A DNA stretch of 64,000 nucleotides, taken from Gekko japonicus (taxonomy: Eukaryota). The notes beneath the pieces are model-generated. The model did no database searches. It worked only from the letters and a program-made list of their open reading frames with translations, and was not told where the DNA came from. Position numbers and translations under genes: made by a program. Location of the stretch: contig NW_015170908.1 of the NCBI RefSeq assembly GCF_001447785.1, positions 266,233 to 330,232 of the forward strand, written 5' to 3'. Numbering within the stretch: the first letter of the stretch is position 1; every line of letters begins with the position of its first letter. Shown here in pieces: positions 43,759 through 61,590 of the stretch.

Positions 43759-43863
43759 ATGGGAATCACAGCACCGGCAGTGGCTGTGGACGCGTTGGCG
43801 ATGGCGTTAGGGGCCTCCGGCCTTCTGCTCCTCGTCCTGTGTGCCGGATCAGATTGCTGGAGG
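43759..43863 (+). CDS. Plus-strand claudin exon 1
   Basis: MGITAPAVAVDALAMALGASGLLLLVLCAGSDCWR|gtaag. Confidence 0.85.
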
Positions 43864-46800
43864 GTAAGAATTAACTTTCTCTTGATCAAATGTGTTGCAT
43901 CCCACCCCGCTTCCAAGGAGCTAACACCAGTGTCGATGGGTCTGTCACAACAACCTTGCAGGGTACGCTAGTCCAAGGGGGAGTAACTGAGCCAGAACCA
44001 CCTCAAAGCTTCATGGCGGGATGGAGATTGGGACTGAGCTCTGGCCAGTCCAAGTCCAACACTCTGACCCTTGTGCTGCGTCGTTCAGAACCCGAAAACC
44101 TTCAAAGCTCAGATCCTGGCAACCAGGAAAGAGCTGTACAGGGATCAGAACAGTGCTGGATTTGGATTTAGGGGCAAGCACCCTAGGGGCTGTGGTGGCT
44201 CAGAGGTTAAGACGCTGAGCTGCAGACCGGAAGGTCTGTAGTTCGGCAGTTCGAGACCCGAGTGCCGTGTGGCGGAGTGAGCTCCCGTCTCTGGCCCCAG
44301 CTCCTGCTAACCTAGCAGTTTGAAAGCAAGAAATTGCAAGTAGATAAATAGGTACCACTTCGGTGGGAAGGTAACAGGGTTCTGTGTGCCTCGGCGTTTA
44401 GTCATGCCGGCCACACGACCACGAAAATGTCTTTGAACAGCACTGGCTCTTCGGCTTGGAAACAGAGATTAGCACCGCCCCCTAGAGTCGGATTCGACTG
44501 GCTTTCGAGCAAGGGAAACCTTTACCTTTACCTTTTTACCCTAGGGGCCCTGGGCTTGTGAGGGGCCTCCAGATGTCTACCAAAACTATCCACTATGTAT
44601 TTCAAACAGTTCTTTTTGGCTTGCACAGCTGATAAGTACAGCTGTAACACTATTTAACACTGGTCCACCCAATACTGGTGCACGGATCAATTACCTGATC
44701 TTTCAGTTATTCTTAAAATTTAAGTATTCTCAAACTTTAAATCCTTTTCTAAGGGTGGAGGCAACAAATGTGCTATCGTTTGCCAATGCTCAGCATGTGC
44801 GAACGCTGATTGACAGATCCTAGTGGGCAGACTGATTATCATGCCGTGGGGATAAATCATGCATACAAAGGGGGGTATCAAAGTAATGAAATGTGAGAGA
44901 AAGACAATTTAAAAAGAACCAAAAGTTGAACAAATGCAGATGCTTCTCAATGGAGGAGGCATAATTTTGCCTTGGGCCAGTTTGGTGTAGTGGTTAAGTG
45001 TGCGGACTCTAATCTGGGAGAACTGGGTTTGATTCCCCACGCCTCCACTTGCAGCTGCTGATGTGACCTTGGGTCAGTCACAAGCTCTGGCACAGCTGTT
45101 CCTGAAAGAGCAGTTTGTGTCAGAGTTCTCTCAGCCCCACCTACCTCACAGGGTGTCTGTTGTGGGGAGAGGAAGGGAAAGGAGTTTGTAAACCGCTCTG
45201 AGACTCCAAGTGAAGGGTGGGGTATAAATCCAATCTCTTCTCTTCTCTTCTAAACTGGGATTTTGAAGAGACACGCAAAGTCAGCTGCATCCCTCATCCA
45301 GAGTTCTTGATTCTATGGGGAGGGGGGGGGGTTGTGACAGGTAACAGGGTGTGGAAGGCCACAGAGATGATGCCAAGTGGTTCTCAACCGTGGGTCTGGA
45401 GCCTGAATTGCAACAATTCAGAGTTTGCCCTGGTAAACATGTACACCTTGGTAGATAACCAGCACCCGATCAAGGCGATGTGTCTTTTACATCATCAGGT
45501 AGACCAGCCTGTTTCCCCACATTTCTTAACCTTGAATCCCCTTTGGTTTTCAAACAAATCTTATCCCTTCTCCTTTTTCCTCTGAGGAGAAATGGATGAT
45601 AAGAACCAAAGAAAGACTCGGGTTGAGCAGATGAAAAAAAAAGAGAAAATGATGCCGTTGCCACAGGAACGCTAAGCCCTGAGAAATATATCGGTGGCAA
45701 TAAACGCCAGCGGCATTTGGTGTGCTAGAGGAAAGGTCAAAACTCTTTCTGACAACTTGAAAAAGAGAGGAACCAGTTCAGTTTATTCTGGGCGTGTTTT
45801 TCACACACACAAATTTTGTTTATCACACCGTTCAGGCAAAGTTGTCAGTGCCGGGCTACGGTCGGCCTTCCTGACTGGGAGGTTTGCCATATTTTCAAGT
45901 TGGGCTTCAAATAACTTAATGGACACTCTCCTCATAACTAATAAAAACTTTTAGAACCCTCTTGCCCAAGACCAAGGATCAATGTGCTTTCTAACATTTC
46001 ATGAACTGTGAGGTTTGGGATCGGGCAAGCTGAGTAAAACCAGTTAATGTTGAAGTTCGGAAGCTTCCTTCTGCTTTTCACACGCTGTTTCCTCAGAGAA
46101 ATAACAATGGCTCTTGAAGCATCCAACTGTGCTCACTTGTGAAAGCGGAATTTTCAAAGTCACATAAGCATTTTTTTTAAAAAAAAAACCTTAAGGATGT
46201 GGTTGCCAGCTTCCAGGTGGGGCCTGGGGATCTCCTGCTTTTACAACTGATGTCCAGATGACAGAGATCAGTTCCCCTGGAGAAAATGACTGCTTTGGAG
46301 GGTGGACTTTATGGCGTTATACCCCCAAAATCTATGCCTCCACCCCCCAAATCTCTAGGTATTTTCTCCATCCAGAGCTGGCAACCATACAAGTTAAGGG
46401 GGTCACTGGTTGGAACATCCAGGGAGCAGCATTTGAGAAACTTCTACCTTTTAGAAGGTTATCAGTCACTTTTAAAACCAGTGAAGTTTAAGTCTAAAAA
46501 AAAGCCCAAAACTGTCTTTCTTAAAATGGAAATGTTATAAATTAAAAAGCTTGAAAATATACTCCAGATGTGGTGGTGGGACAGGAAGTTAGTGTTTGTT
46601 GACCCATTCCTAAGTAATGCATTTCCCTTGTGCAGCAAGACGCCAAGGATCCTCTGTCTTCCGTGGGCTTGAGTGTCCGGTGCCGGGGCCTATGGAGTGA
46701 GTGCATATTTGATAACGTAGCCAACTTCTGGACATGTGATATTCCTATCTCCTATCTCAGTGAACACCCCGGTAAGGAAAATGTGTCTGTGTGATTTGGG

Positions 46801-49800
46801 CGGGCGGCTGATTGTACTCATATCTGTATCTGGGATGGGATCTCCAGTTCAGATTGGAGTTTCAGGATCAGACCTTGAAATACAACAAGCAAACAACTGT
46901 GCTGTATTGACCAGACAAAACCAGGAGGCCAAGCTGTTCGTATTCATATCAGGAATTTCAGGAAGGGGCCATTGCCTGCTCTGGGAGGTGGAGTTTGGGA
47001 AGGGGAAGAGACCACAGCAGGATATAATGTCAGAGTCCACCTTCCAAAGCAGACAGTCTCCAGGGGAAGTGATCTCTGTCATCTGGAGACCATTTGTAAT
47101 TCCGTGATCTCCAGCCATGAACTGGAGGTTAACAACAAACATGACATACACGGATGAATACCAATAAAAGGGGGAAATCCTCTGTATAATTAAACCTCCA
47201 AAAATACATAAAGACATTAAGTATAATGTTTACAAAGTATTTACATAATTAGCAATACACACAAAACAATCTCAATACAGATCTTGGAATTCATATAAAT
47301 AAATTGTGCAAATAGGGGAAGATCCAGGTTCATTAGTTACAGAACAAAGGATTCAAATGTAAATTGCAAATTCAAAAGCCCGTTCAATACACCAATAGTA
47401 CTTTTGAATTTGTAATTTACATTTAGCTGGAACGGAACTTGCAGAGCTGCTATGTGAACAGCACTGGAAGTCTTCAGGAACAGAGGATTCTACTCGCCTG
47501 AAGTACTATTGGTGTATCGAGTGGACTTTTGAATTTGCAATTTACATTTGGATCCTTTGTTCTGTGTGATTCATGAAATTTTCCCTATTTGCACAATTTA
47601 TTTATATGAATTTCAAGATTTGTACTGAGATTTGTGTGTGTTTCCTGGCTATGTAAATAATTTGCAAGCATCCTATTGAGTGCCTTTGATATTTTGGGAG
47701 GTTAATCATATGGAGGATTTCCCCCCCTTTTTTTGTATTCATGATATGGAGGTTGGCAGCCCTATTTCTATCCCATTAGGGAATGCTTAGTATTTGGATT
47801 TCAACTATTTGCACAAAAAAGAAAAGGGCAAGCAACAAGGACAAAAACNNNNNNNNNNNNNNNNNNNNNNNNNNNNNNNNNNNNNNNNNNNNNNNNNNNN
47901 NNNNNNNNNNNNNNNNNNNNNNNNNNNNNNNNNNNNNNNNNNNNNNNNNNNNNNNNNNNNNNNNNNNNNNNNNNNNNNNNNNNNNNNNNNNNNNNNNNNN
48001 NNNNNNNNNNNNNNNNNNNNNNNNNNNNNNNNNNNNNNNNNNNNNNNNNNNNNNNNNNNNNNNNNNNNNNNNNNNNNNNNNNNNNNNNNNNNNNNNNNNN
48101 NNNNNNNNNNNNNNNNNNNNNNNNNNNNNNNNNNNNNNNNNNNNNNNNNNNNNNNNNNNNNNNNNNNNAGATATGCTAATGAGTTCCTGGTGTTGGGTGT
48201 GGCCTATTATGCTAATGAGTTCCTGCTGGCCTTTTTCTACAAAAAAAGCCTTGGTTACGGGGTACGAACGCGGGATTCTGGCTGCTAGGCCAACGGTGGC
48301 GTTTTCTTTCCTCGAATGTCACAATCCTTTCCCCCCTCTCCTTGCAGCTGTCTTGGTGGTCACCCGGGTCTTGGTCATCCTGTCCGGCTTCCTGACTCTT
48401 GCCGCCCTCCCCCCTTTCATTGCCGGGATGAAATGCACCAACCTGATCCGTGACAAAGTCCCTCGGAAATACAAGTTTTCCCTTGCTGCTGGGAGTTTGT
48501 TCCTCCTAGGAGGTAAATATGGTCTTGGTCTTTTTTTATGGGGATGGGGCAAATGTATTCTCTCTGGGCTGTGGCACTGGGAAGACCTCCAAAAATTAAA
48601 AAATAAATAAACAAAACACATCTCTAAGGAATGCGGCCTTTTTTGACTGGGCCTCTTCCTGTGCCTTTGGTGGCATGCAACACACAAAATTTAAGCGGCA
48701 AAGCTTTAGGGTGGGCTGTGGCTTCGTGGAAGAGCACCTGCTTGGCATGCCGAAGGCCCTAGGTTCAAACTCTGCTATCTCCAGTTGACATGATCAGGTG
48801 GTAGTTGATGTGAAAGACCTTGCTCCAAGGCCTTGGAGAGCTGCTGCCAGTCTGAGTTGACAATATTGACCTTGATGGATCTATGGCCTGATTCAGTATA
48901 AGGCAGCAGTATAAGGCAGCTTCACATGTATATAGGTCCTGGCATTTATTTATTTATATTCTAATTTATATCCCGCTCTACCCTGCCAAAGCAGGCTTCG
49001 TTCTCACAGCACCCTAGAGGCCACAGCTGAAGCAAGGTGGCTAGCAACTCACTCCCAATGGAAAAGCCAAGCCACAACCTGAGGCTCTATAAGGCAGGAG
49101 GAACCCCATTGGCCTCGCCCATTGTTGAATGCGGCCAGCAGGAGAAAAATGAAGCAGAAAAATTGCCGTCGGCACAATGCCCCCAAAAGTGACCTAATGC
49201 CATTGCACTGATGGCACCCCCCTGTGCCCTCACCCCTTAGAGTTGCCAGGCCCCTCTGGCCACCGGCAGGGGATGGGGGTAGGGTTGAGAAACTGAGGTT
49301 AGGAAACTCCTGGAGATTTGAAGATGGTACCTGGGGAGGACAGGGACCTCAGTGGGCCACAGTGCCACAAAGTCCATCCTCCAAAGCAACCGTTTTCTAC
49401 AGGGGAACTGATCTGCATAGTGTGGAGATGAGCCGAAGTTCCAGGGGATCCCCAAGTGCCACCTGGAGACTGGCATCTCTACCAACCCCTCAGAGTCCTG
49501 CTAGTTGCCAGCTGGCTACCTGGAACCCCTAAGAGACTTTGGAGGGCAAAGCCTGGGGGGGGGGAAGATGTTGATGCATCAACTTCACTTCTGGCTAAAA
49601 CTCGGAAGCAGTGTCACCGATGCTCAAGGATTTCAATGAGATCTATGGTAAAAGCAAACTCTTAAGAGAGTCGGTGATGTCACTCCAGGTTTTAATTGGA
49701 AGTGACATTGATGTGTCAGCAACATACTTCCCCCCCCCATTCTCCCCATTGCTGGCAGTGGGGGGCTAGGATATGGTTGCAGGAGATCACCCATCCTAGT

Positions 49801-52800
49801 GGATAAGTTGGCAACCCTAATTAATGTACACATCCTCTGTAGACTAAAAGCATCAGCGGTTTGGTATTAGAAACAGGGGACTGGATTCAGTCCCTCCCCT
49901 TCTTCGTGGAACAGCTGGTCGGTGGGATTGTAGCTAGTCTGAAAGTCTTCCAAAAGTTCTGAGCCAAAAGAACAAACATCCTCTCAGCTTTTCAATTAGT
50001 ACAGGATGGGTCACTGCAGGCAAACATGAATCCTGCGCAGTGAAGCGTGAACAGGGAGAACTCTGGAGTGTATAATCCTGTGGGTCAAACCCCAGTGCCT
50101 CTTCTAGCCAAGAAACACTCCCCCTACAAAGTTCTCTCTGCCTTGTGGTCGTCAAAGGTACAGGCAGGGATCATTTCGTAGAAAAAGAGGTGCAGGAGCT
50201 CATTAGCATAACATTTGCATATGCCACACCCCCTGACATCACCGGAAGTGTGTCAGAAGGCAACACCCACCGCTCAGGCTCCACTGGACTGTTTTGGATT
50301 GCTAGCTATTGGGGGGGACGGGGGGCGTGCAGATCTGTCCTCGCAGAGGAGGGAGAGCTTGTACCTGATTAAAACTTGGCCTTAAAGGTGCCACTGGACT
50401 GTTTTGGACTGGGGGTGCGGGGGGGGCTCTGCAACTTACCTGGCTGCTTCTTGCTCTGTGAGGGCTGCTGGGAGCAGGGCTTGTTGCATGTGCCCGCCCC
50501 CTGAGCTCTTTACTGCCGGAGCTCCGCTCCTGCAGGAAATGACCCCTGGGTACAGGGACCCCACGAGGGGGTGGGGGAGCAAGTTTGGTGATCATCACAT
50601 GGCCGCTCCTCTCTCTTTCGCAGGTACAGCTGGTGCAGTGGCTGTCCTTTGGTATGGCATCGACACTGTGCAGAAGTATAAACTAGAGGTAAACTTGACT
50701 TCCTGGGGGCACAGATGGGCAGTTTAAAACAAGCGCACTAAGGTAGCTCCAGAATTGTATCAGGAAAGCCAGTGCGGTGGAGTGGTTTGAGTTCTGATAA
50801 GAGCTGTTCTTGAAAAAGAGCAGTTTCTTTCAGAGCTCTCTCAGCCCCACCTACCAGGGTGTCTGTTGTGGGGAGGGGAAGGGAAAGGAGTTTGTAAGCC
50901 GCTCTGAGACTCCGAGTGAAGGGCGGGGTATAAATCCAGTCTCCTCCTCCTCCTCCTCCTCCTCCTCCTCCTCTTCTTCTTCTTCTGGCAGTAGCCCAAT
51001 CGTTCGCTCACAACTTTAATGCCAGTAGCTCACAAAGTAGGATTTTTGCTCACAAGACTCCACAGCTTAGAGGGAGCACTGGTCTTGAGCCCTGCTAACT
51101 GGCCTGCTTACGGGCTGTCCTCTTCTTGGAAAGCAGAAGATTGACCCTCCATCCCCAATCAGCAAGGGGCTTCCTTCCAGACTTTGGGCCTTGATAGCTA
51201 TACAACCATGCCAGCCACCATCCTAGATTACCGTGTAAAACAGACTGGGGAAGAGAGTTCCACAAACAGGGTGCCACTGGCACTGCCTATTTTTGAGGGC
51301 CAAAAACCTTACCTCAGAGGAGAGGGGCACCAACCAGAACTTTAATAAAGAGCTTTTAAAAAGCAGGGTGACACACTACAGGTGGGTGAAAAGTGTCCAT
51401 TGCCATCTTTCAAGGTAGCCAGCTTTTCAAACTGACCTCTGTCGCTCTGCTCTTAATACCATTTTTATCATTATTGGGGATTTTCCATTGGAACCCTTCA
51501 CCTACTGATTTCTTCACAGTGAGCACAAGAACAGAATAAGCTGGTCAGTTGGCAATTCTCTGCCCTGCTTTCTTGCTCTCCCCCATAAAAATGCATACAT
51601 TCCTCCCTGCAATTTTATTTTTTTCCCTTTTATATACAGTTAACAGAAGAGTTCAGCAGCCCCCACCCCATGGATATTCATTGGCAGAAAATGTCACTGG
51701 TGAAATTAAACCACGGCGCAGTATTGCTAGCTGTGCAAGGAAACATATTCTTCTCGCTTTGGTGGGGGGAATGAACAACTTTCCCCCTCATGCTTTAATA
51801 TTAATGTCCATTCCCTCACAATTGACTGTTTGTATTTTGTCCCCACAGGCCAGAACAATTGCTTGCATTAAAAACTGGGCAATGAGAGGAATTAATGCAT
51901 ATATATATATATATATACACACACACATACACACACATGAATGAAACTATGATCTAAATCCATAGACTAAAGCTCATTGTGATGGAACATTATGACAAAA
52001 TAGCAGCTTTCTCTAACGAAAGAGGGCCCTGCTGGATCAGACCAGTAGTCCATCTAGTCCAGCACCCTGTCTCACACAGTGGCCAGCCAGTTCCTCTGGA
52101 GGTCCAGCAGGGCAGAGAGGCCGAGACCTTCCCCTGATAATAAGAACATAAGAAGAGCCCTGCCAGATCAGACCAGGGGTCCATCTAGTCCAGCATCCTG
52201 TCTCACACAGGGGCCAACCAGTTCCTCTGGAAGGCCAACAACAGGGCACAGAGGCTGAGGCCTTCCCCTGATAAAAAATATCAGAAGAGCCCTGCCGGAT
52301 CAGACCAGTGGTCCATTAGTCCAGCATCCTGTCTCACACAGTGGCCAACCAGTTCCTCTGGACAGTCAACAACAGGGCACAGAGGCTGAGGCCTTCCCCT
52401 GATAAAAAAATATCAGAAGAGCCCTGCCAGATCAGACCAGTGGTCCATTAGTCCAGCATCCTGTCTCACACAGTGGCCAACCAGTTCCTCTGGACGGTCA
52501 ACAACAGGGCACAGAGGTTGAGGCCTTCCCCTGATGTTGCCCCCTAGCTCTGGGATTCACAGGCTTAGTGCCTGCAGATAGAAATTTTGTCTTTGACAAA
52601 TTCCTATTAGCTGTCAACTTTTTTTATTTTTTGGCCATCAAGTCACAGCAGACTCACAGTGACCCCCTAGGGTTTTCCAAGGCAAGAGATTTCAGAGGTG
52701 GTTTTGACCATTGCATCATGACCCTGGTATTCCTTGGAGGTCTCCCATCCAACTACTTGCCAGGGCAGACTCTGCTTAGCTTCTGAGGTCTAATGAGATT

Positions 52801-53844
52801 GGGCTAGCTTGGGCTATCCGGATCAGGGCGTATTTTTGTTGCCTGACAAAAAATTCACCATTGTTTGGGCTGCTGAGAGATTTTCCAGGATCCCCTCCAG
52901 GAGCCAATTTGGTGTAGTGGTTAAGATCGGTGGATTCAAATCTGGGAGAACTGGGTTTGATTCCCCACTCCTCCACATGAAGCTCGCTGGGTGACCTTGG
53001 GTCAGTCACAAGTTCTCTCAGAGCTGTTCTCTCAAGAGCAGTCCTCAACAGAGCTCTCTCAGCCCCACCTACCTCACAGGGTGTCTGTTGTGGGGAGTGG
53101 AAGGGAAGGAGATTGTAAACTGCTCTGAGACTCTCGATTGAAGGCCCGGATATAAATCCAATTCTTCTTCTTAAAGGTTAATCTTGGTACTAGCAGATAG
53201 CTTAAATATTTTTGCCAATGGAAATCCTTAGCAGTTGAAAACATAATTCTCTTTTCCTCCATTTTCTCACAACAGCAGCCCTGTGAGGTAGGCTAGGCTG
53301 AGAGGGAGTAACTGGCCCAAGGTCACCCAAGGAAGCTTCTATGGCAGAGTGGGGATTCGAACCTGGGTCTGACACTCTAACCATTACACTGCGTTGGCAC
53401 TCAATCACAGCCAGAGATTGTGATTAGTGTTAGACTAGGACTAGGGGGACTCTTCAGCCTCCCACCTTGCCATGAAGATCCTTGACTGACTTTAGGTCAG
53501 ATGCTGTTTCTTAACCCAGCCTACCTTGCAGGTTTGTTGTGAGAATCAGTTAGCAGGAGAGAACAATGAGCTCCTTGAAAGGAAGGGGGGCTAACAATGT
53601 GATCTGTAGGCCGCCTGCCCCTGGTTCTTTCATGGCTTCAATTTTCCTCCAGGTCACCTTTAGCATTCCTGGTGTGACGTACGAACTCGGCTATGCCTAC
53701 TGGATGGCTGCAGGGGGCACTGCTTGCGCCTGTTCTGCCGGGATTCTGCTGATTGTCGCCAGCTGTCTCAATGCCGAGAGTCCAGGAAAGGATCAGAGCC
53801 CTCGGCGGCACTGCCCTCCTGATTTCAAAGGCACATACCTGTGA
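43759..53844 (+). CDS. Divergent claudin-16-related claudin, 5 exons, 220 aa
   Basis: Exons 43759-43863, 46636-46771, 48348-48512, 50624-50688, 53653-53844 (663 nt, phases consistent). Claudin signature W...GLW..C...C, with DCW, CRGLW and EHP motifs, four hydrophobic segments, and C-terminal TYL. Confidence 0.9.
44186..44540 (+). mobile_element. Sauria SINE
   Basis: Full length, flanked by accctagggg direct repeats. Confidence 0.85.
46636..46771 (+). CDS. Plus-strand claudin exon 2 (ECL1)
   Basis: QDAKDPLSSVGLSVRCRGLWSECIFDNVANFWTCDIPISYLSEHP, tgcag/gtaag. Confidence 0.92.
47153..47742. repeat. Long imperfect inverted repeat (~250-bp arms, ~100-bp spacer)
   Basis: e.g. ttcatataaataaattgtgcaaatagggg vs ttccctatttgcacaatttatttatatgaa; atacaccaatagtactt vs aagtactattggtgtat. 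Confidence 0.85.
47849..48168. other. Assembly gap (others 26354-26370, 57971-58306)
   Basis: Runs of N. Confidence 1.
48348..48512 (+). CDS. Plus-strand claudin exon 3
   Basis: 165 nt; VLVVTRVLVILSGFLTLAALPPFIAGMKCTNL...AGSLFLLG. Confidence 0.92.
50624..50688 (+). CDS. Plus-strand claudin exon 4
   Basis: TAGAVAVLWYGIDTVQKYKLE|gtaaa, 65 nt. Confidence 0.85.
52020..52560 (-). repeat. Tandem array of ~130-bp CR1-like 3' tips (4 copies); similar 3-copy array at ~36635-37010
   Basis: Repeated aagagccctgc..gatcagacca..ggtccat.tagtccagcatcctgtctcacacag. Confidence 0.8.
53653..53844 (+). CDS. Plus-strand claudin exon 5
   Basis: VTFSIPGVTYELGYAYWMAAGG...DFKGTYL*; ATTAAA at 53882. Confidence 0.88.
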   Translation, partial: VTFSIPGVTYELGYAYWMAAGGTACACSAGILLIVASCLNAESPGKDQSPRRHCPPDFKGTYL

Positions 53845-53969
53845 AGGTGAGCCTCTCTGCCAGCAGGGAGTCCAGATACCTATTAAACCAGAAACCAGCC
53901 TGATAGTGTCATTTTTGTGTGTGACTGAGCTGGTTCACCTTAATCACACATTGACTGATAACAAGCACT

Positions 53970-54765
53970 AACACTGCCTGGGGTACAGGCAACCTCAAAA
54001 TCTAGCCCTCCCTCTTTAGTTAAAAGAAAAGGTCCACACAATCAGTGATCCCAGCATAGATAGTTGACACAACGTCCGGGGCTGACAGCGGTATTGTCTT
54101 TGGGGGCTTCTGAGGGGGGGGGGACATATGGTGCAGGCAACCTGAAAATACAGCCCTCGCTCCTTAGCGAAAATAAAAGGTCCACACAATCAGTGATCCC
54201 AGCACTGACAGCTGACACGTGGTGCTGGGCAGATAGCACTATAGTCTTATGGGGCTGCTGGCGGGGGAAGGATTCACACGATGCAGGCAGCTTCAAGCTC
54301 TAGCCCTCCCTTCTTAGGTAAAATAAAAGGTCCACACAATCAGTGATCCCAGCACTGACAACCGACACGTGGTACATTGTCTTATGGGACTGCTGGAAGG
54401 AACACAAGGTGCAAGGAAATCTGGCCCTCCTTCCTTAGCCAAAAGAAAAGGTCCACACAGTCAGTGATCCCAGCACTGACAGCTGACACGTGGCACATTG
54501 TCTTATGGGACTGCTGGAGGGAACACAAGGTGCAAGGAAATCTGGCAGTCCTTCCTTAGCTAAAAAGAAAAGGTCCACACAGTCAGTGATCCCAGCACTG
54601 ACAGCTGACAGAGTGCTGGGCAGATAGCACTATTGTCTTTTGGGGCTGCAGGGCGTGGGCACACATGGTGCTGGCAACCTCAACATCTAGCCCTCCCTCC
54701 TCAGCCAAAAGGAAAGGTCCACACAATCAGCGATCCCAGCACTAAGAGCTGCCATTATGGGGGCA
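53970..54765. repeat. Six-copy tandem array (~120-150 bp units) between the convergent claudin stop codons
   Basis: Core aaaggtccacaca(a/g)tcagtgatcccagcactgaca at ~54028, 54176, 54326, 54447, 54569, 54713. Confidence 0.9.
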
Positions 54766-54778
54766 TTCTTCGGCTGCA

Positions 54779-54867
54779 TCACACTCGGGAAGCGACAGCG
54801 TACATCTTGCAGGTGACTGCCCGTGAACGGAACATGAGCCGTTGAGGTCTCTGGGAGAAAGCTGCAT
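54779..54867 (-). CDS. Claudin-16-like exon 5 (NAGNAG acceptor)
   Basis: [29 protein letters not shown]; PDZ-type S-R-V end. Confidence 0.88.
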
Positions 54868-57800
54868 CTGCTGGGGATGGAAGAATTAGAGAACTGAGTT
54901 TTTGAGGTGCCGCTTCTCACCTTTAAAGCCCTTCTCCGCCTGGGGTTCATGTAGCTGACAGCCAGAGTGGTGTAGTGGTTACAGTGTTGGACTTAGATCT
55001 AGCAGACTCAGGTTCGAATCCCCACTCTGCCATGGAAGCTTGCTGGGTGACCTTGGGCCAGTCACACACTCTCGGCTTAACAGGATGAAGATAAAACGGA
55101 CGTGAGGAGAATTTGCAAGCCACTTTGGTTCCCCAGTGGGGTGGGAATGAATAGTAATTAATTAATTAATTATCATATGGCATGGGTGTGTGTAGAATAG
55201 GCAGGAGATCCTAGGATTGCCTGTCAGCCAGACGTTCTAGCTCTTTACTGTTATGCACCACTAGGTGGCGAGCTCGACTTGTTTTTAAGGCAAGAGATGT
55301 TTCAGAGGTGGTTTGCCACTGCAACTCGAGTTCCAGACGAAACAAATACTAACCCGTGACGGCGTAAAAGCAGCAAGTCAACACGACGGATGCTAGGAAG
55401 CCTCCGGTGGAGCCTGCCATTCCCATCCAGCAAGACCAACCGAAGTCGTAATGGACGCCCACAAACACGTTGTGTAACAGGAGTCTGACCCTCTCCAAGT
55501 AGACATCGACGGCGTACCACACTGAGCCTACCAGTCCGAGGATACCTGGCAGGCAAAGAGGTCCAGTCAGCTACACGTCAAAGCAGGGTTGCCAGCTCCA
55601 GGTTGGGAAATACCTGGAGACTTAGGGGGTGGGGTGTAAGGAGGGAGGGGTTCGGGGAGGGGAGAATGGGGTCCAATGTCAGAGAGTCCACCTTCCAAAG
55701 TGGCCATTTCCCCCAGATGATTTCTGTCACCTGGCAGGGCTATCTTTGGGCAGAAACGCACAGGAACGGAGTTCCGGCTGGCTCTCAAGTTGGCCACGCC
55801 CAGCAGGAACTCATTAGCATAATAGGCCACACCCAACAGCAGAAACTCATTCGGATTGGCTACGTTAGGGGTGTGTGATATGCTAATGAGTTTCTATTGT
55901 TGGGTGTGGCCTATTATGCTAATGAGTTCCTGCTGGGCTTTTTCTACAAAAAAGGCCCTGTCTCCTGGAGATCAGTTGTAACACTGGGACATCTCCAGCC
56001 ACCAGCTGGAGGTTGGCAACACTACATCAAACTGTCCTGTGTAATTGCTTAGAGTTGCCAGGTGTCCCCTTTCCTCATCGGGAAACTCCTGGAGATTTGG
56101 GGGTGGAGCCTGGGAAGGACAGGGACCTCAGTGGGCTATAATGCCACAGAGTCCACCCTCCAAAGCACCCATTTTCTCCAGGGGGACTGATCTCCGTAGT
56201 CTGGAGATGAGCTGCATTTCCAGGGGATCCCCAGGGGCCACCTGGAGGCTGGCACCCCTAGTAATTGCTAAGGTTGCCAGTCTCCAGCTGGTGGCTGGAG
56301 ATCTCCTGGCATCACAACAGGACTCCAGGTGACACAGATCAGTTACCCTGGATAAAATGGATGCTTTGGAAGGTGGGCTCTATGGCATTGTACCCCACTG
56401 AGGTCCCTGTCCTCCCCTCCCCGAACCCCGCCCTCCCCAGGCTCCACCCCCAAAATCTCCAGGTATTTCTCAACCCCGAGCTGGTATCTCTACTATTTGC
56501 CCTGAAGAAGTTTGGTTCGATATTAGTGCCACGTGCTTCCCCGAAGACTTACTTCCGACCCCGAGCACCAGTCCAGATGAATAGCGCATCTTCAGCTTGA
56601 TTTGCGGCTCGTCCTTCAGGAACTTGATGCAGTCGAGGCCCAGCGCCAGCAGGGCCAAAGCGAAGCCCGAGAGGATGTCGGCTGTGATCAGCAAGGCCCG
56701 AGTCACCACGATCTTCACTGAGGGGAGAGAGCAAAGCGAGGCTGGACGAATGAGTGCCAGGCCGGATTCAGTCTTGCTTTATCATTTCCTTTACAGAACC
56801 TCTCTTTCTCTCCCTCCACTAGAGTTGCCAACCTCCAGGTGGTTAGCAATATACGAGAGATCACAGGAAGAAGAAGAGGAGGAGGAGGAGGAGGAGGAGA
56901 CTGGATTTATACCCCGCCCTTCACTACCCAAAGGAGTCTCAGAGCGGCTTACAAACTCCTTTCCCTTCCCCTCCCCACAACAGACACCCTGTGAGGTGGG
57001 TGGGGCTGAGAGAGCTCTGACAGAAACTCAAGAAAGCTCTTATCAGAACTACGGCTTGCCCAAGGTCATCCAGCAGGTGCAAGTGGAGGAGTGGGGAATC
57101 AAACCTGGTTCTCCCAGATTAGAGGCTGCGCACTTAACCACTACACCAAACTGGTGGTTCAGTACAACCAAAATACAGCCTCCTCCTCCTGCGGCAGGGC
57201 CCAGCAGGGAAGCCATCATTCAGGGCTTTTGGCAGCAGCCCGGCCCTGCTCCCCTCCCCGACCCCTTCCCATGGCGGCGGCGATTGCCCGGTTAGGGTGG
57301 TGGTGGGTTTTTTTGGCAGGGGGGTGGGGCGCACTTTGGCGCCCCTGAGGGCCGGCGCGCCCTAGGCGAGCACCTAGTTTGCCTAGCGGGCAAGCCGGCC
57401 CTGGCCATGATATAATTACTCCATGATAAATTGCATAGTCGATTATATTGTTTGCCAGCAAAGAACTTTACACTGAGACAGACTGAAGTTGTGCAACAGA
57501 ATTCTACAAATGAATTGGACAAGATTGGTTTGACTGCCAGGTTTGCCTTGAGAAAGGACGGAAACGGGGATCTTGAGCCGGCCCGCTGGAAGCCTGGGCA
57601 GTTGCCACACTTGGACTAAACATACACGAGAAGAAACCGATATGGAAACAATTAGAACTGAACTTTGGCACGAGTACTTTCTTTAACACTTTTATCTGTT
57701 ATACGGTTTGCACGGAAATGTTTGTGTGAACGTGCTTGGTAAGCAATATAATTGACTGCACAATGTTACACTGAGTAATTATATCACGGCTGGAGTTTGG

Positions 57801-60800
57801 TGGTTCTTAGCCTGCAGGCGGTGGCTAGCATTCTCCTGGGATTACGACTGATCTCTAAGCAGCAGAGATCAGTTCACCGGGAGAAAAATGGCCGCTTTGG
57901 AAAGTGGACTCTGTGGCATTCTACCCCACCGAGGTCCCTCCTCTCCCCAAACCCTGCCCTCCTTAGGCTCNNNNNNNNNNNNNNNNNNNNNNNNNNNNNN
58001 NNNNNNNNNNNNNNNNNNNNNNNNNNNNNNNNNNNNNNNNNNNNNNNNNNNNNNNNNNNNNNNNNNNNNNNNNNNNNNNNNNNNNNNNNNNNNNNNNNNN
58101 NNNNNNNNNNNNNNNNNNNNNNNNNNNNNNNNNNNNNNNNNNNNNNNNNNNNNNNNNNNNNNNNNNNNNNNNNNNNNNNNNNNNNNNNNNNNNNNNNNNN
58201 NNNNNNNNNNNNNNNNNNNNNNNNNNNNNNNNNNNNNNNNNNNNNNNNNNNNNNNNNNNNNNNNNNNNNNNNNNNNNNNNNNNNNNNNNNNNNNNNNNNN
58301 NNNNNNGGGCGGGGCTTCGTCATGTGCCCCGCCCCCGTACCTCACCCGGGGGAACTGCGATCCCCCGCGTTCCCCCCCGAAATGACCTCTGCTTGGACCT
58401 GGAAATCCCACTCTCCACCCATCCACATTGGTCCATCAATTCATCCTCCACTTACCTACCTATTTGTCCATTCCTCCAGGGGTCGCCAGCCTCCAGTGGG
58501 GGCTGGAAACCCCCCAGAATTACCGCCGATCTCCAGACGACATAGATAGCTTATTATTTACTCAAACCATTTATTCCACTTCTCCTGGAGAAAAGGGCTA
58601 CTTTGGAAGGTGGACTGCGTGGACTGCAATATACCCTACTGAGGTCCCTCCCCTCCCTAAATCCCGCCCTCCCAGGCTCGACCCTCAAATCCCCAGGTAT
58701 TTTCGAACCCAGAGCTGACAACCCTAATTCCACTGTATGTCTCATCTTCTATCGGTCCGAGTCATCCGTCTCTGTCCACGAGTCCATTTCATCTATCTCT
58801 CCATGTGTCTGTCCATCCATCCGTCATCTCTATATGCCCATTCCCAAAAGTTGGTCGCTTGATGGAACATTGGAAACCAATGCATGCAGACCAGGGGTCA
58901 TTTCGTAGAAAAAGAGGTGCAGGAGCGCATTAGCATAACTTATTTGCATAACTTATTTGCATGTGCCACACCCCCTGACATCACCGGAAGTGTGTCAGAA
59001 GGCAACACCCACCGCTCAGGCTCCACTGGATTGTTTTGGATTGCTAGCTATTGGGGGCGGGGGGGAACGTGCAGATCTGCTCTCACAGAGGAGGGAGAGC
59101 TTGTACCTGAATAAAACTTGGTCTTAAAGGTGTGCCACTGGATTGTTTTGGATTGCTGGCTGGGGGGGGGGAACGCGCAGATCTGTCCTCACAGAGGAGG
59201 GAGAGCTTGTACCTGAAGGCGGGGGGGGGCTCTGCAACTTACCTGGCTGCTTCTTGCTCCTCGTGGCCTGACTGAGGGCTGTTGGGAGGGGGGGCTTGTT
59301 GCATGTGCCCACCCCCTGGGCTCCTTACTGCCGGAGCTCCGCTTCTGTGCGCTCCCGCAGGAAATGACCCCTGACGCAGACAATCCTACGATATGCAAAT
59401 GAATGGGGGGAGCTATGTAGATTATATCAGGCTTGGTTCTCAATGAGTAGGGTGGCCAAGGCCAAGGGACAACTGCCCTTGGGCCCAAACCTACCTAATA
59501 ATAAAAATAGGCCCTCAGTTCCAGTGGTGTCTGTAACCCTATCCTCATAACTACATTCCAGATTCACGTAACAGTCATCTCCCGTTTTGTTTGCTCAAGA
59601 TATGAGCAGTCTAGGCATGCTCAGAATCCCCTCTGCAGTTTCCAGGGCTTTCAAAGATACGTTTTAAAAGGGGAGATGCAATTGCATTAAGTTTAACACA
59701 CACACACACCGAGTCCACAATGGCCGTAGAAGACAATTCTTATCAATAGCTGGAGACTTACAGGGATGTTCTGCTAAAATGGAATCATAGGGGTCACAGG
59801 TCTTGATGCCGTCCTTCAAGTTGCTGACGCACTCCCTCCAAAGCCCCCGACACTTGTGGCTGACCTGCATGGGAACACAGAAGGGGTAGAAGGGATCTAC
59901 AAGGATAGTTTGAGACGTTGCCAGGGCTGGCCCCATGGGGGAACCTAGACTCAACTCAGGATCATCCATTCCCCCCCCCCCAAGAGTCAGCTCCACCATC
60001 TTGCCTCTTGCTTATGCAGAACCTGGCCAAACTGGAGGTAATTCATGAATTAAATGACAACATCTCCCAAAGTCCTTTGCAATAAGCACAAGGAACTCTG
60101 GGATTTTCTGCCTCCCTCAGAGGGCTGCCCTAATCCAGGAGGGCCCCTCTGATGTAAACTGGAGACCGTCGTGCTGTACGCGAATGCCGAAAGCCAAAGA
60201 ACATTGGTTTTCATAGAAGAATTTGTTGATTGGTTTTTTTTAAATTTAACAGATTTCTATCCTACTTTTCCATTCAAAAAGCCTTCAAAGCATTTTACAA
60301 TCAAACCATTAAAACCGCAATAAATCCTTTATAAACAGAGGGAATGCCAAAGGGGAAGAAGCAGTGCAGGGGTCCCCAACCTTTTTGAGCCTGTGGGCAA
60401 CTTTGGAACTCTGACGTGGCGTGGTAAGCGCCGCCACAAAATGGCTGCTGCAGGAGGTGGAGCCAGCCACGAAATGGCTGCCGCAGGAGGTGGAGCCAGC
60501 CACGAAATGGCTGCCGCAGGAGGTGGAGCCAGCCACGAAATGGCTGCCGCAGGAGGTGGAGCCAGCCACGAAATGGCTGCCGCAGGAGGTGGAGCCAGCC
60601 ACGAAATGGCTGCCGCAGGAGGTGGAGCCAGCCACGAAATGGCTGCCGCAGGAGGTGGAGCCAGCCACGAAATGGCTGCCGCAGGAGGTGGAGCCAGCCA
60701 CAAAACGGCTGCTGCAGCTTTCCCTTCAGTCGCACAGTAAAGATCCTTGTGCTGTGGTGGCTGCTGCTGTCCAACCAACGTTTTCAATAATCTGCACAGC

Positions 60801-61590
60801 CAGTTAAATCTACGAACCAAAAAGGGCTATTTATTAAGGTGTACACATGTTAAGACTTTCCTGATTAAAAATTGCTTTGTCTGAGATCAGACTATAAAAG
60901 CTTATCCTCTATACATACATATGATGGGTAAATACTTTACAACTGAAGACCAAACGTGTTTCGGCCCCTAAGGGCCTTCCTCGGTGGTCACTATTATCTA
61001 TATATTCTAGACACACATTCAAAGACCTGTTACAGAGTTTTAGTACACATATAATTTAACCAGATGTTGTTTCCTTGTATACTTATAATTGGACTTCTGG
61101 TATTAGTGATGGGCCATAGGTATCGCCAAATCACCTCCACAACTTATTCTGGTAACAGCGATTTTGTAGGTCTGAATGTGTGTCACTCCATCAAGGTGAA
61201 AATCTCCAGTGGCCAGTAAGAAGCCTTGTTGGGCAAAGGCCCCGCCTGGCTCTGCCCACTTTCTTAAAACACCTGGTGGGTGCCATGCTGCCCAGGCCAG
61301 AGGCACCACGTTGGGGACCCCTGAAGCAGAACCTACTAGCAATTGCTCCAGTGGGGCCGAAAGGGGTGCAGAAGAGTCACGTTTTGCTCTGTTCCCCCTT
61401 CCAATCCTGAAGGAAGTGTCCGTAGGGTGTTGACGGCCCCCTTGAATCTGGGCCTGCCGCTACCCATTTTGCTCACCTCTAAGCTGTCGTCGACATTCAC
61501 CATCCAGCAATCAGTCCAAGTGGCTGCCACCAGGAAGAGGGTGGAGACGAAAGCCATGGAGAAAGACACCATCTGCACCAGCGCAGCCAT
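54779..61590 (-). CDS. CLDN16: Claudin-16-like protein, 5 exons, 220-221 aa (orthologue vs paralogue unresolved)
   Basis: Exons 61590-61477, 59864-59762, 56717-56553, 55545-55354, 54867(or 54870)-54779. [16 protein letters not shown]|[13 protein letters not shown]...[35 protein letters not shown] and C-terminal KMYAVASRV closely follow CLDN16. Confidence 0.9.
55354..55545 (-). CDS. Claudin-16-like exon 4
   Basis: [63 protein letters not shown], 192 nt. Confidence 0.93.
56553..56717 (-). CDS. Claudin-16-like exon 3
   Basis: [18 protein letters not shown]...[17 protein letters not shown]..., 165 nt. Confidence 0.93.
59762..59864 (-). CDS. Claudin-16-like exon 2
   Basis: [34 protein letters not shown], 103 nt. 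Confidence 0.93.
60439..60716. repeat. 33-bp minisatellite, ~8 near-identical units
   Basis: Unit aaatggctgccgcaggaggtggagccagccacg. Confidence 0.95.
60948..60989 (-). ncRNA. Minimal Penelope-type hammerhead ribozyme motif (core variant)
   Basis: GACCA CCGAGGA A GGCCC TTA GGGGCC GAAAC ACGT T TGGTC: stem I, CUGANGA-like core (U4C), stem II, GAAA. Confidence 0.6.
61477..61590 (-). CDS. Claudin-16-like exon 1
   Basis: [38 protein letters not shown]|gtgag, 114 nt. Confidence 0.92.

What the first reader, a model, noticed from the sequence alone, without database searches (positions are those of the whole stretch)
43759..53844. Highly divergent claudin with two intron positions not shared with its CLDN16-like neighbour
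Seen: introns 2 and 3 (phase 1, flanking a 165-nt exon) match the neighbour. Intron 1 falls right after DCWR instead of after SLE. Intron 4 is phase 0 inside ECL2 instead of phase 1 after TM4. The W-to-CRGLW spacer is 3 aa longer, ECL1 has fewer acidic residues, and the tail ends TYL rather than SRV. Inference: an ancient, possibly unnamed claudin subfamily with different ion selectivity and PDZ partners, not a recent duplicate.
Basis: partly seen in the sequence, partly recalled or inferred. Interest (0 to 1): 0.7.

Follow-up and report, generated by a model that had tools for sequence, protein, structure and literature searches.

The report
Ancient unnamed cousin of claudin-16
This is an intact gecko gene for a cell-junction protein (a claudin) of an old branch that runs from sharks to crocodiles, is labelled only "claudin-16-like" in databases, was not found in mammals, birds or snakes, and likely lines a pore that lets positive ions pass between cells.

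Summary
Five GT-AG exons give a 220-aa claudin (X); introns 1 and 4 differ from the neighbour as described, and one spliced contig carries junctions 3 and 4. X is not a recent copy and not the CLDN16 orthologue. Its clade (99/99) runs from chimaera and sharks to teleosts, amphibians, turtles, crocodilians and lizards; no named hit is a mammal, bird or snake. Two additions: a second paralogue (Y, between HES2-like and espin-like genes) shares all four intron sites with X, and the neighbour is itself a second CLDN16 copy beside CLDN19, the true CLDN16 lying next to CLDN1 elsewhere. So CLDN16 is one of four related genes here. The first loop is 80% identical gecko to sturgeon and keeps invariant aspartates at the claudin-15 D55 and claudin-2 D65 sites, so a cation-selective tight-junction pore is the best guess; untested. 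Ten literature searches found no description, but three family-wide phylogenies could not be read.

The parts
43759..43863 (+). Gene X exon 1 (Met, TM1, ends after DCWR; intron 1 phase 0)
   Evidence: in-frame stop upstream and no earlier in-frame ATG after it; orthologues start at the same place
46636..46771 (+). Gene X exon 2: ECL1 with CRGLW, C-x10-C, D61 and D70
   Evidence: 80-100% identical to 33 of 36 candidate proteins; 17 database models switch to unrelated sequence at or beside this exon start
48348..48512 (+). Gene X exon 3 (165 nt, TM2-TM3, phase 1 both sides; shared with CLDN16, CLDN19)
   Evidence: its 3' end is joined to exon 4 in a contig of run X1
50624..50688 (+). Gene X exon 4 (65 nt; same length in paralogue Y; intron 4 phase 0 in ECL2)
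   Evidence: spliced contig
53653..53844 (+). Gene X exon 5: rest of ECL2, TM4, tail ending TYL, stop
   Evidence: 15 reads of run X18 at 53662 and an X1 contig starting at 53651
54779..61590 (-). Neighbour: second CLDN16 copy ('16b'), five exons, 220 aa, tail-to-tail with X (934 bp between stops); 30% identical to X, 53% to the true CLDN16
53982..54610 (.). Tandem array of 121-148-bp units between the two stop codons; AATAAA on + at 54172 and 54322

Best explanation
X is an intact claudin of its own ancient jawed-vertebrate lineage, related to but not orthologous with claudin-16, and it likely polymerises into tight-junction strands where it is predicted to line a cation-selective pore between epithelial cells. 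Shown: gene structure, claudin signature, tree position, wide distribution, strong conservation of both outer loops. Inferred step 1 (about 0.8): it folds like claudin-15, joins strands through the linear cis contact (aromatic residue at the claudin-15 M68 site, Y and E-L in ECL2) and is anchored by its T-Y-L/V tail to ZO-type PDZ domains. Inferred step 2 (about 0.5): D61 (claudin-15 D55 site), D70 (claudin-2 D65 site), E57 and D40 make the pore attract Na+ and perhaps divalent cations, with a filter laid out differently from CLDN16. Inferred step 3 (about 0.25): it works with CLDN19 or a CLDN16-type partner in kidney or another salt-handling epithelium. History (inferred): the X/Y ancestor split from CLDN16 before CLDN16 itself doubled into the CLDN1-linked and CLDN19-linked copies; X was later lost in mammals, birds and probably snakes.
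For: PF00822 above cut-off (46.6 vs 26.7 bits). Model pLDDT 88.8 with four helices and five strands; best match claudin-15, Z 21.7, rmsd 1.9, 180 aligned. Tree of 75 rows: X 99/99, Y 100/100, X+Y 95/88, CLDN16a+b 100/99, all four 100/100. True CLDN16 lies on another contig head-to-head with CLDN1. ECL1 identity to gecko X: 82-86% amphibians, 80% sturgeon, 65-67% shark and chimaera, against 25-44% for TM1/TM2 in those fishes. Among 48 of 72 X proteins with a complete loop: D at first Cys+3 in 48, D at second Cys+1 in 47, E at first Cys-1 in 48, D at W+6 in 48, Y/F at second Cys+6 in 46; ECL2 Y..EL in 64 of 65 matched. D55 = Cys+3 read from the claudin-15 chain; K65 of claudin-4 aligns with D70. 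Roles of D55, D65, K65, M68: PMC9647347, passages. CLDN16 acids D104, D105, E119, D126, E140 and TRV motif: PMC3867513, passages; X keeps three of the five sites.
Against: No functional, localisation or tissue data; read depth on exon 4 was 1 read in X18, none in X20 and X13. X has R, not E, at the claudin-15 E46 site (48 of 48), K at the CLDN16 D104 site and A at the D126 site. Its Cys-Cys hairpin is one residue longer than in classic claudins, so site mapping by offset may shift. Y keeps the same two aspartates yet has a net positive loop (3 acid, 5 basic), so these residues may be structural in this clade. X+Y as sisters is not proven by sequence: X with CLDN16 is not rejected (p-AU 0.24). 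The good model drew on an alignment that held classic claudins; with X sequences alone ECL1 was unresolved (pLDDT <50 over 33-77). Absence from mammals, birds and snakes rests on protein searches, not on genome scans.
Confidence: 0.55

Rival explanations
1. X is a tight-junction claudin that seals (barrier or anion-favouring) rather than a cation pore; its conserved acids serve folding or trans contacts.
For: Net ECL1 charge only about -2 (mean 6.1 acid, 4.2 basic over 49 proteins) against -6.6 for true CLDN16; invariant K at W+5 and R before GLW; Y has the same two aspartates in a positive loop.
Against: D at both known cation-filter sites is invariant over the whole clade; claudin-4 has K at the second site.
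Confidence: 0.25
2. X works outside tight junctions, as a claudin-fold accessory subunit of a channel or an adhesion protein (TARP- or LHFPL-like role).
For: TARP, MP20 and LHFPL proteins share the fold (Z 17-18; atlas ranks 20-21); outer loops far better conserved than helices could reflect a fixed ligand.
Against: The 11 best fold matches are claudins (Z 19.4-21.7); all 11 sequence matches in the PDB are claudins; it nests with CLDN16 at 100/100; cis-contact residues and PDZ tail are kept.
Confidence: 0.1
3. The lineage is already named in fish or amphibian claudin nomenclature, so it is a known gene under an automatic label.
For: Teleosts carry X (smelt, blenny, pomfret, arapaima), and PMC3875606 (passages) says 21 pufferfish claudins have no mammalian counterpart. 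Loh 2004, Baltzegar 2013 and a lamprey claudin paper were not held.
Against: Every source name seen is 'claudin-16(-like)', 'Claudin', hypothetical or unnamed, with one 'claudin-1-like' isoform; PMC3875606 has no occurrence of cldn16 or claudin-16; 'claudin-16-like' occurs in 1 paper, in a table only.
Confidence: 0.2
4. X is a recent, fast-diverged tandem copy of its neighbour, or a decaying pseudogene.
For: Adjacent, tail-to-tail position; low read depth.
Against: 30% identity; AU p 1e-89; orthologues in sharks; open frame; short end branch 0.047.
Confidence: 0.01

Closest known systems
Claudin-16 (paracellin-1), the CLDN1-linked gene
   Same: Extra cysteine pair (C before the first W, C two before GLW), C-x10-C hairpin, H-P at the end of ECL1, introns 2 and 3, acids at the E119, D105 and E140 sites, T at -2 of the tail; one clade at 100/100.
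   Different: 28% identity; separate clade and contig; introns 1 and 4 elsewhere; D104 site is K, D126 site is A; D gained at Cys+3; tail TYL vs TRV; spacer 3 longer.
Second CLDN16 copy ('16b', the window neighbour; also lizard, bird, sturgeon and probably marsupial 'claudin-16-like')
   Same: Same locus, same superclade, introns 2 and 3.
   Different: 30% identity; has the CLDN16 intron pattern exactly (114/103/165/192 nt exons as in true CLDN16); grouping with X rejected.
Paralogue Y (G000:C2813:52866-63837, also only 'claudin-16-like')
   Same: All four intron sites and phases, 65-nt exon 4, D at Cys+3 and Cys+1, TY-x tail, E|V-x-x-x-I-P-G in ECL2.
   Different: 36% identity; short spacer; net positive ECL1; seen from sturgeon to lizards, no shark, teleost or crocodilian among 42 hits.
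Cation-channel claudins 15 and 2
   Same: Fold (Z 21.7 to claudin-15); D at the D55 and D65 sites; W..G spacer of classic length.
   Different: About 22% identity; R at the E46 site; different introns; extra cysteines.

Membership tests
Claudin family (PF00822) | Scores above the PF00822 cut-off | tested here: met
   P0001 46.6 bits, P0002 54.2 bits, cut-off 26.7
Claudin family (PF00822) | ECL1 signature W...GLW-x2-C-x8-10-C (signature recalled) | tested here: met
   W34, G53-L54-W55, C58, C69
Claudin family (PF00822) | Four TM helices plus five-stranded sheet | tested here: met
   Predicted model of orthologue P0002, pLDDT 88.8; Z 21.7, rmsd 1.9, 180 aligned to claudin-15
Claudin family (PF00822) | C-terminal PDZ-binding motif | tested here: met
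   By sequence only: TYL 55, TYV 6, TYI 3, IYL 2 of 73; binding not tested
Claudin family (PF00822) | Forms tight-junction strands | not testable with these tools
   Needs expression and freeze-fracture
CLDN16 orthologue | Groups with mammalian and bird CLDN16 | tested here: not met
   True-CLDN16 clade 100/98 holds another gene of this genome, not X
CLDN16 orthologue | Head-to-head with CLDN1 (human order recalled) | tested here: not met
   That place is held by G000:C16763:773112-792715; X lies by CLDN19 and a leprecan gene
CLDN16 orthologue | CLDN16 intron pattern (0,1,1,1) | tested here: not met
   2 of 4 sites shared
CLDN16 orthologue | Five functional ECL1 acids (D104, D105, E119, D126, E140) | tested here: not met
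   3 of 5 kept by offset mapping; K and A at the other two
CLDN16-related superclade (16a, 16b, X, Y; defined here) | Extra Cys pair and C-x10-C hairpin | tested here: met
   49 of 73 X rows had a full loop, all C-x10-C; among 53 matched of 125 other claudins 50 have x9, 1 has C at W-1 and 1 has C at G-2
Cation-channel claudins (2, 15) | Acid at the claudin-15 D55 site | tested here: met
   D in 63 of 63 matched, 73 given
Cation-channel claudins (2, 15) | Acid at the claudin-2 D65 site | tested here: met
   D in 62 of 63 matched
Cation-channel claudins (2, 15) | Acid at the claudin-15 E46 site | tested here: not met
   R in 48 of 48; true CLDN16 has R there too
Cation-channel claudins (2, 15) | Measured cation selectivity | not testable with these tools
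   Needs dilution potentials
TARP / LHFPL accessory subunits | Closer to these than to claudins in fold or sequence | tested here: inconclusive
   Lower ranks than claudins; shared fold; function not excluded

The most novel reading that the evidence does not exclude
Claudin-16 is the mammalian survivor of a four-gene subfamily as old as jawed vertebrates; X and Y are two undescribed paracellular channels with near-frozen outer loops and opposite loop charge, and X is the missing cation/Mg2+ pore partner of claudin-19 in fish and reptile kidney, where a salmon paper notes that only Cldn19 has been found.
Probability: 0.2. Interest if true: 0.75.

Novelty: new member of a known kind. Interest (0 to 1): 0.5.

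Why it matters
Claudin-16 is treated as a lone outlier of the family (recalled). Here it has three unnamed relatives, all hidden under one automatic label, so 'claudin-16' in fish, amphibian and reptile transcriptomes may be any of four genes; Anolis and Heterodontus X are even named plain 'claudin-16'. X offers a natural variant of a paracellular filter, unchanged at key sites for over 400 million years (date recalled), and a testable candidate for the unknown Cldn19 partner in fish kidney raised in PMC11605958 (passage). Its apparent loss in mammals and birds bears on how salt and magnesium handling changed.

Tried and rejected
Pfam on single exons: no claudin hit, exons too short. First fold, on 27 X sequences: ECL1 unresolved, no Foldseek match at E<=0.001. 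Run search listed no holder on record as RNA. Whole-gene read lay: dominated by intronic repeats, no exon joint among the 15 shown. Complex prediction of P0002 with a CLDN19-like protein of another species, both without alignments: no verdict; not used. dN/dS: not done, no orthologous coding DNA was reachable; regional protein identity used instead. Earlier scan notes: three look-ups, nothing. Atlas: generic claudin clusters only. Literature: 10 searches (listings and abstract starts only) gave no paper on this lineage; no supplements were read, and gene tables there could name it. Rejected: longer spacer as a novelty; TYL as proof of new partners; neighbour as the CLDN16 orthologue; monophyly of the '16b' group is unresolved in the tree, so the marsupial and sturgeon rows are only provisionally 16b. 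Left out of the tree: truncated or chimeric models and near-duplicates (18 of about 70 X and 10 of 42 Y database proteins used).
Full report
Observation. Reading the window and fixing the exon ends gives five exons of 105, 136, 165, 65 and 192 nt with GT-AG introns of phase 0,1,1,0 and a 220-aa frame ending TYL. The neighbour on the minus strand has phases 0,1,1,1 and ends SRV. Residues 15-220 equal database protein P0001, which its source names claudin-16-like [Gekko japonicus]; orthologues that begin 14 residues earlier support the first ATG. A 320-base gap lies in intron 2 and does not touch the frame.

Splicing. The run search listed no holder on record as RNA. A lay on the whole gene was swamped by intronic repeats but showed 15 reads of X18 at the start of exon 5. 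A lay on exon 4 alone found one read in X18, none in X20 and X13, and one X1 contig whose loose ends are the end of exon 3 (89 letters, the 30 shown match exactly) and the start of exon 5 (26 letters, 2 differences). Junction 3 meets the tool's bridging rule, junction 4 falls a few letters short. Indirect support: 17 X and 9 Y database models change to unrelated sequence at the exon-2 start, 3 X and 1 Y just after exon 4, and 2 X just before exon 5, in lizards, turtles, crocodilians, amphibians and fishes (some rows are isoforms of one gene). So both unusual intron sites look old.

Distribution. The profile of 27 X proteins found 70 proteins at E<=1e-20 among 7998 candidates scored: lizards, an amphisbaenian, turtles, crocodilians, frogs, salamanders, a caecilian, lungfish, sturgeon, bichir, bowfin, smelt, sharks and chimaera. 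No named X hit is a mammal, bird or snake; members of only a few clusters were listed. Given 82-88% ECL1 identity to crocodilian and turtle, a bird copy should share words with the query, so loss is likely but not shown.

A second paralogue. Searching the own genome with exon 2 gave a second place. It is an intact five-exon gene, Y, 212 aa, with the same four intron sites and phases and the same 65-nt exon 4, 36% identical to X. It has 42 database relatives from sturgeon to lizards and lies between an HLH gene and an ankyrin-repeat gene (HES2 and espin by recall). Records of X and Y give the same longest-contig length in 24 of 29 species compared by eye (lungfish and three sea turtles not counted), so the two genes have stayed on one chromosome.

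The neighbour is not the true CLDN16. The genome holds another CLDN16 gene on contig C16763, head-to-head with CLDN1, which groups with rodent, goose, emu and shark CLDN16 at 100/98. The window neighbour groups with monitor lizard and a bird protein (99/97) and lies in tandem with CLDN19 (79% to a CLDN19-like protein over exon 1, the best multi-exon match; matches the mouse claudin-19 chain printed), followed by a leprecan gene. A turtle gene model fuses a cold-shock-domain protein to exons 2-5 of X (P0278), which points to YBX1 just upstream there; in humans YBX1 and CLDN19 are neighbours (recalled), marking where X and 16b would have been lost.

Tree. 75 rows, 216 columns, LG+G4: the four lineages form one clade (100/100, long stem), split into 16a+16b (100/99) and X+Y (95/88); X (99/99) holds cartilaginous fishes. 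X as a copy of the neighbour is rejected. X with CLDN16 to the exclusion of Y is not rejected (p-AU 0.24), so the sister status of X and Y leans on the two shared introns. Those introns are not seen in the other multi-exon claudins examined in this genome: CLDN1-, 7-, 10- and 19-like genes have an unbroken TM1-ECL1 exon, these and a CLDN18-like gene share the phase-1 pair, and their ECL2 intron is phase 2, about nine codons later (names by recall; not all claudin genes were examined).

Protein. PF00822 passes. With a deep alignment the orthologue P0002 folds at pLDDT 88.8 into four helices and five strands, closest to claudin-15. ECL1 and ECL2 are much better kept than the helices. The spacer that looked long is the ordinary one; CLDN16 and Y are the short ones. 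All four lineages add a cysteine before the first W and one two before GLW, which may form a second disulfide (inference). By offsets from the cysteines X has invariant D at the claudin-15 D55 and claudin-2 D65 sites, keeps three of CLDN16's five functional acids, and has R at the E46 site. The residues matching the claudin-15 cis contact are kept. The tail has T at -2, Y at -1 and L/V/I at 0; PMC12457479 (passages) and PMC3867513 (passages) give YV and TRV as ZO-1 motifs, so ZO-1 binding is the default guess.

Mechanism. Best guess: a strand-forming claudin with a cation-favouring pore whose main acids sit where claudin-15 and claudin-2 have theirs rather than where CLDN16 has them. A partner such as CLDN19 is plausible because CLDN16 and CLDN19 pair through TM3/TM4 (PMC4666130, passages), but genomic nearness is no proof. 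A sealing role is the main rival.

Literature. Ten searches found no description of this lineage. Seen as passages only: PMC3875606, PMC11605958, PMC8227761, PMC9647347, PMC2441470 (Xenopus cldn16 and cldn19 in pronephros; which copy was not checked), PMC10991444, PMC12457479, PMC4666130, PMC3867513. Loh 2004, Baltzegar 2013 and the lamprey paper were not held; a name there cannot be excluded.

Verdict. Real, ancient, conserved; a new subfamily-level member of a known family, already present in databases under a misleading automatic name. Interest 0.5.

Noticed in passing
G000:C2813:52866-63837 (L004-L006), + strand: Paralogue Y: intact, same four intron sites as X, net positive ECL1, cysteine in place of the TM3 tryptophan, escapes PF00822 in P0077. 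A second in-frame acceptor for exon 4 lies 30 nt upstream.
   Followed up: yes
window 54779-61590, - strand: Second CLDN16 copy beside CLDN19; similar proteins in birds, sturgeon and seven marsupials; the marsupial ones are fast-evolving and lose two of the functional acids.
   Followed up: partly
window 53845-54778: Only 934 bp between the convergent stops, mostly a 121-148-bp tandem array; polyA hexamers on + only, none on -, so the neighbour's 3' UTR may run antisense into X.
   Followed up: no
window 53662: All 15 reads of X18 and the X1 contigs read G for A, giving Gly as in other geckos instead of Ser: allele or assembly error.
   Followed up: no
window 54867-54870, - strand: Tandem acceptor (CAGCAG) at the neighbour's last exon; both choices keep the frame.
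   Followed up: no
window about 15336-38450, - strand: Multi-exon transporter gene, SLC45A1 by recall (exons seen; no Pfam hit on single exons). In a turtle a cold-shock-domain gene seems to stand here instead, suggesting a local rearrangement.
   Followed up: partly
window 60433-60717: 33-bp minisatellite, 8.6 copies, 98% matches, in intron 1 of the neighbour.
   Followed up: no
L043 (G000:C5027:27000-36000): Two broken, frameshifted single-exon claudin copies next to an intact one at C5027:20248-20775.
   Followed up: no
L029-L030 (G000:C11198 about 370-382 kb): Two leprecan-gene exons each appear twice about 0.7-1.3 kb apart: local duplication or assembly artefact.
   Followed up: no
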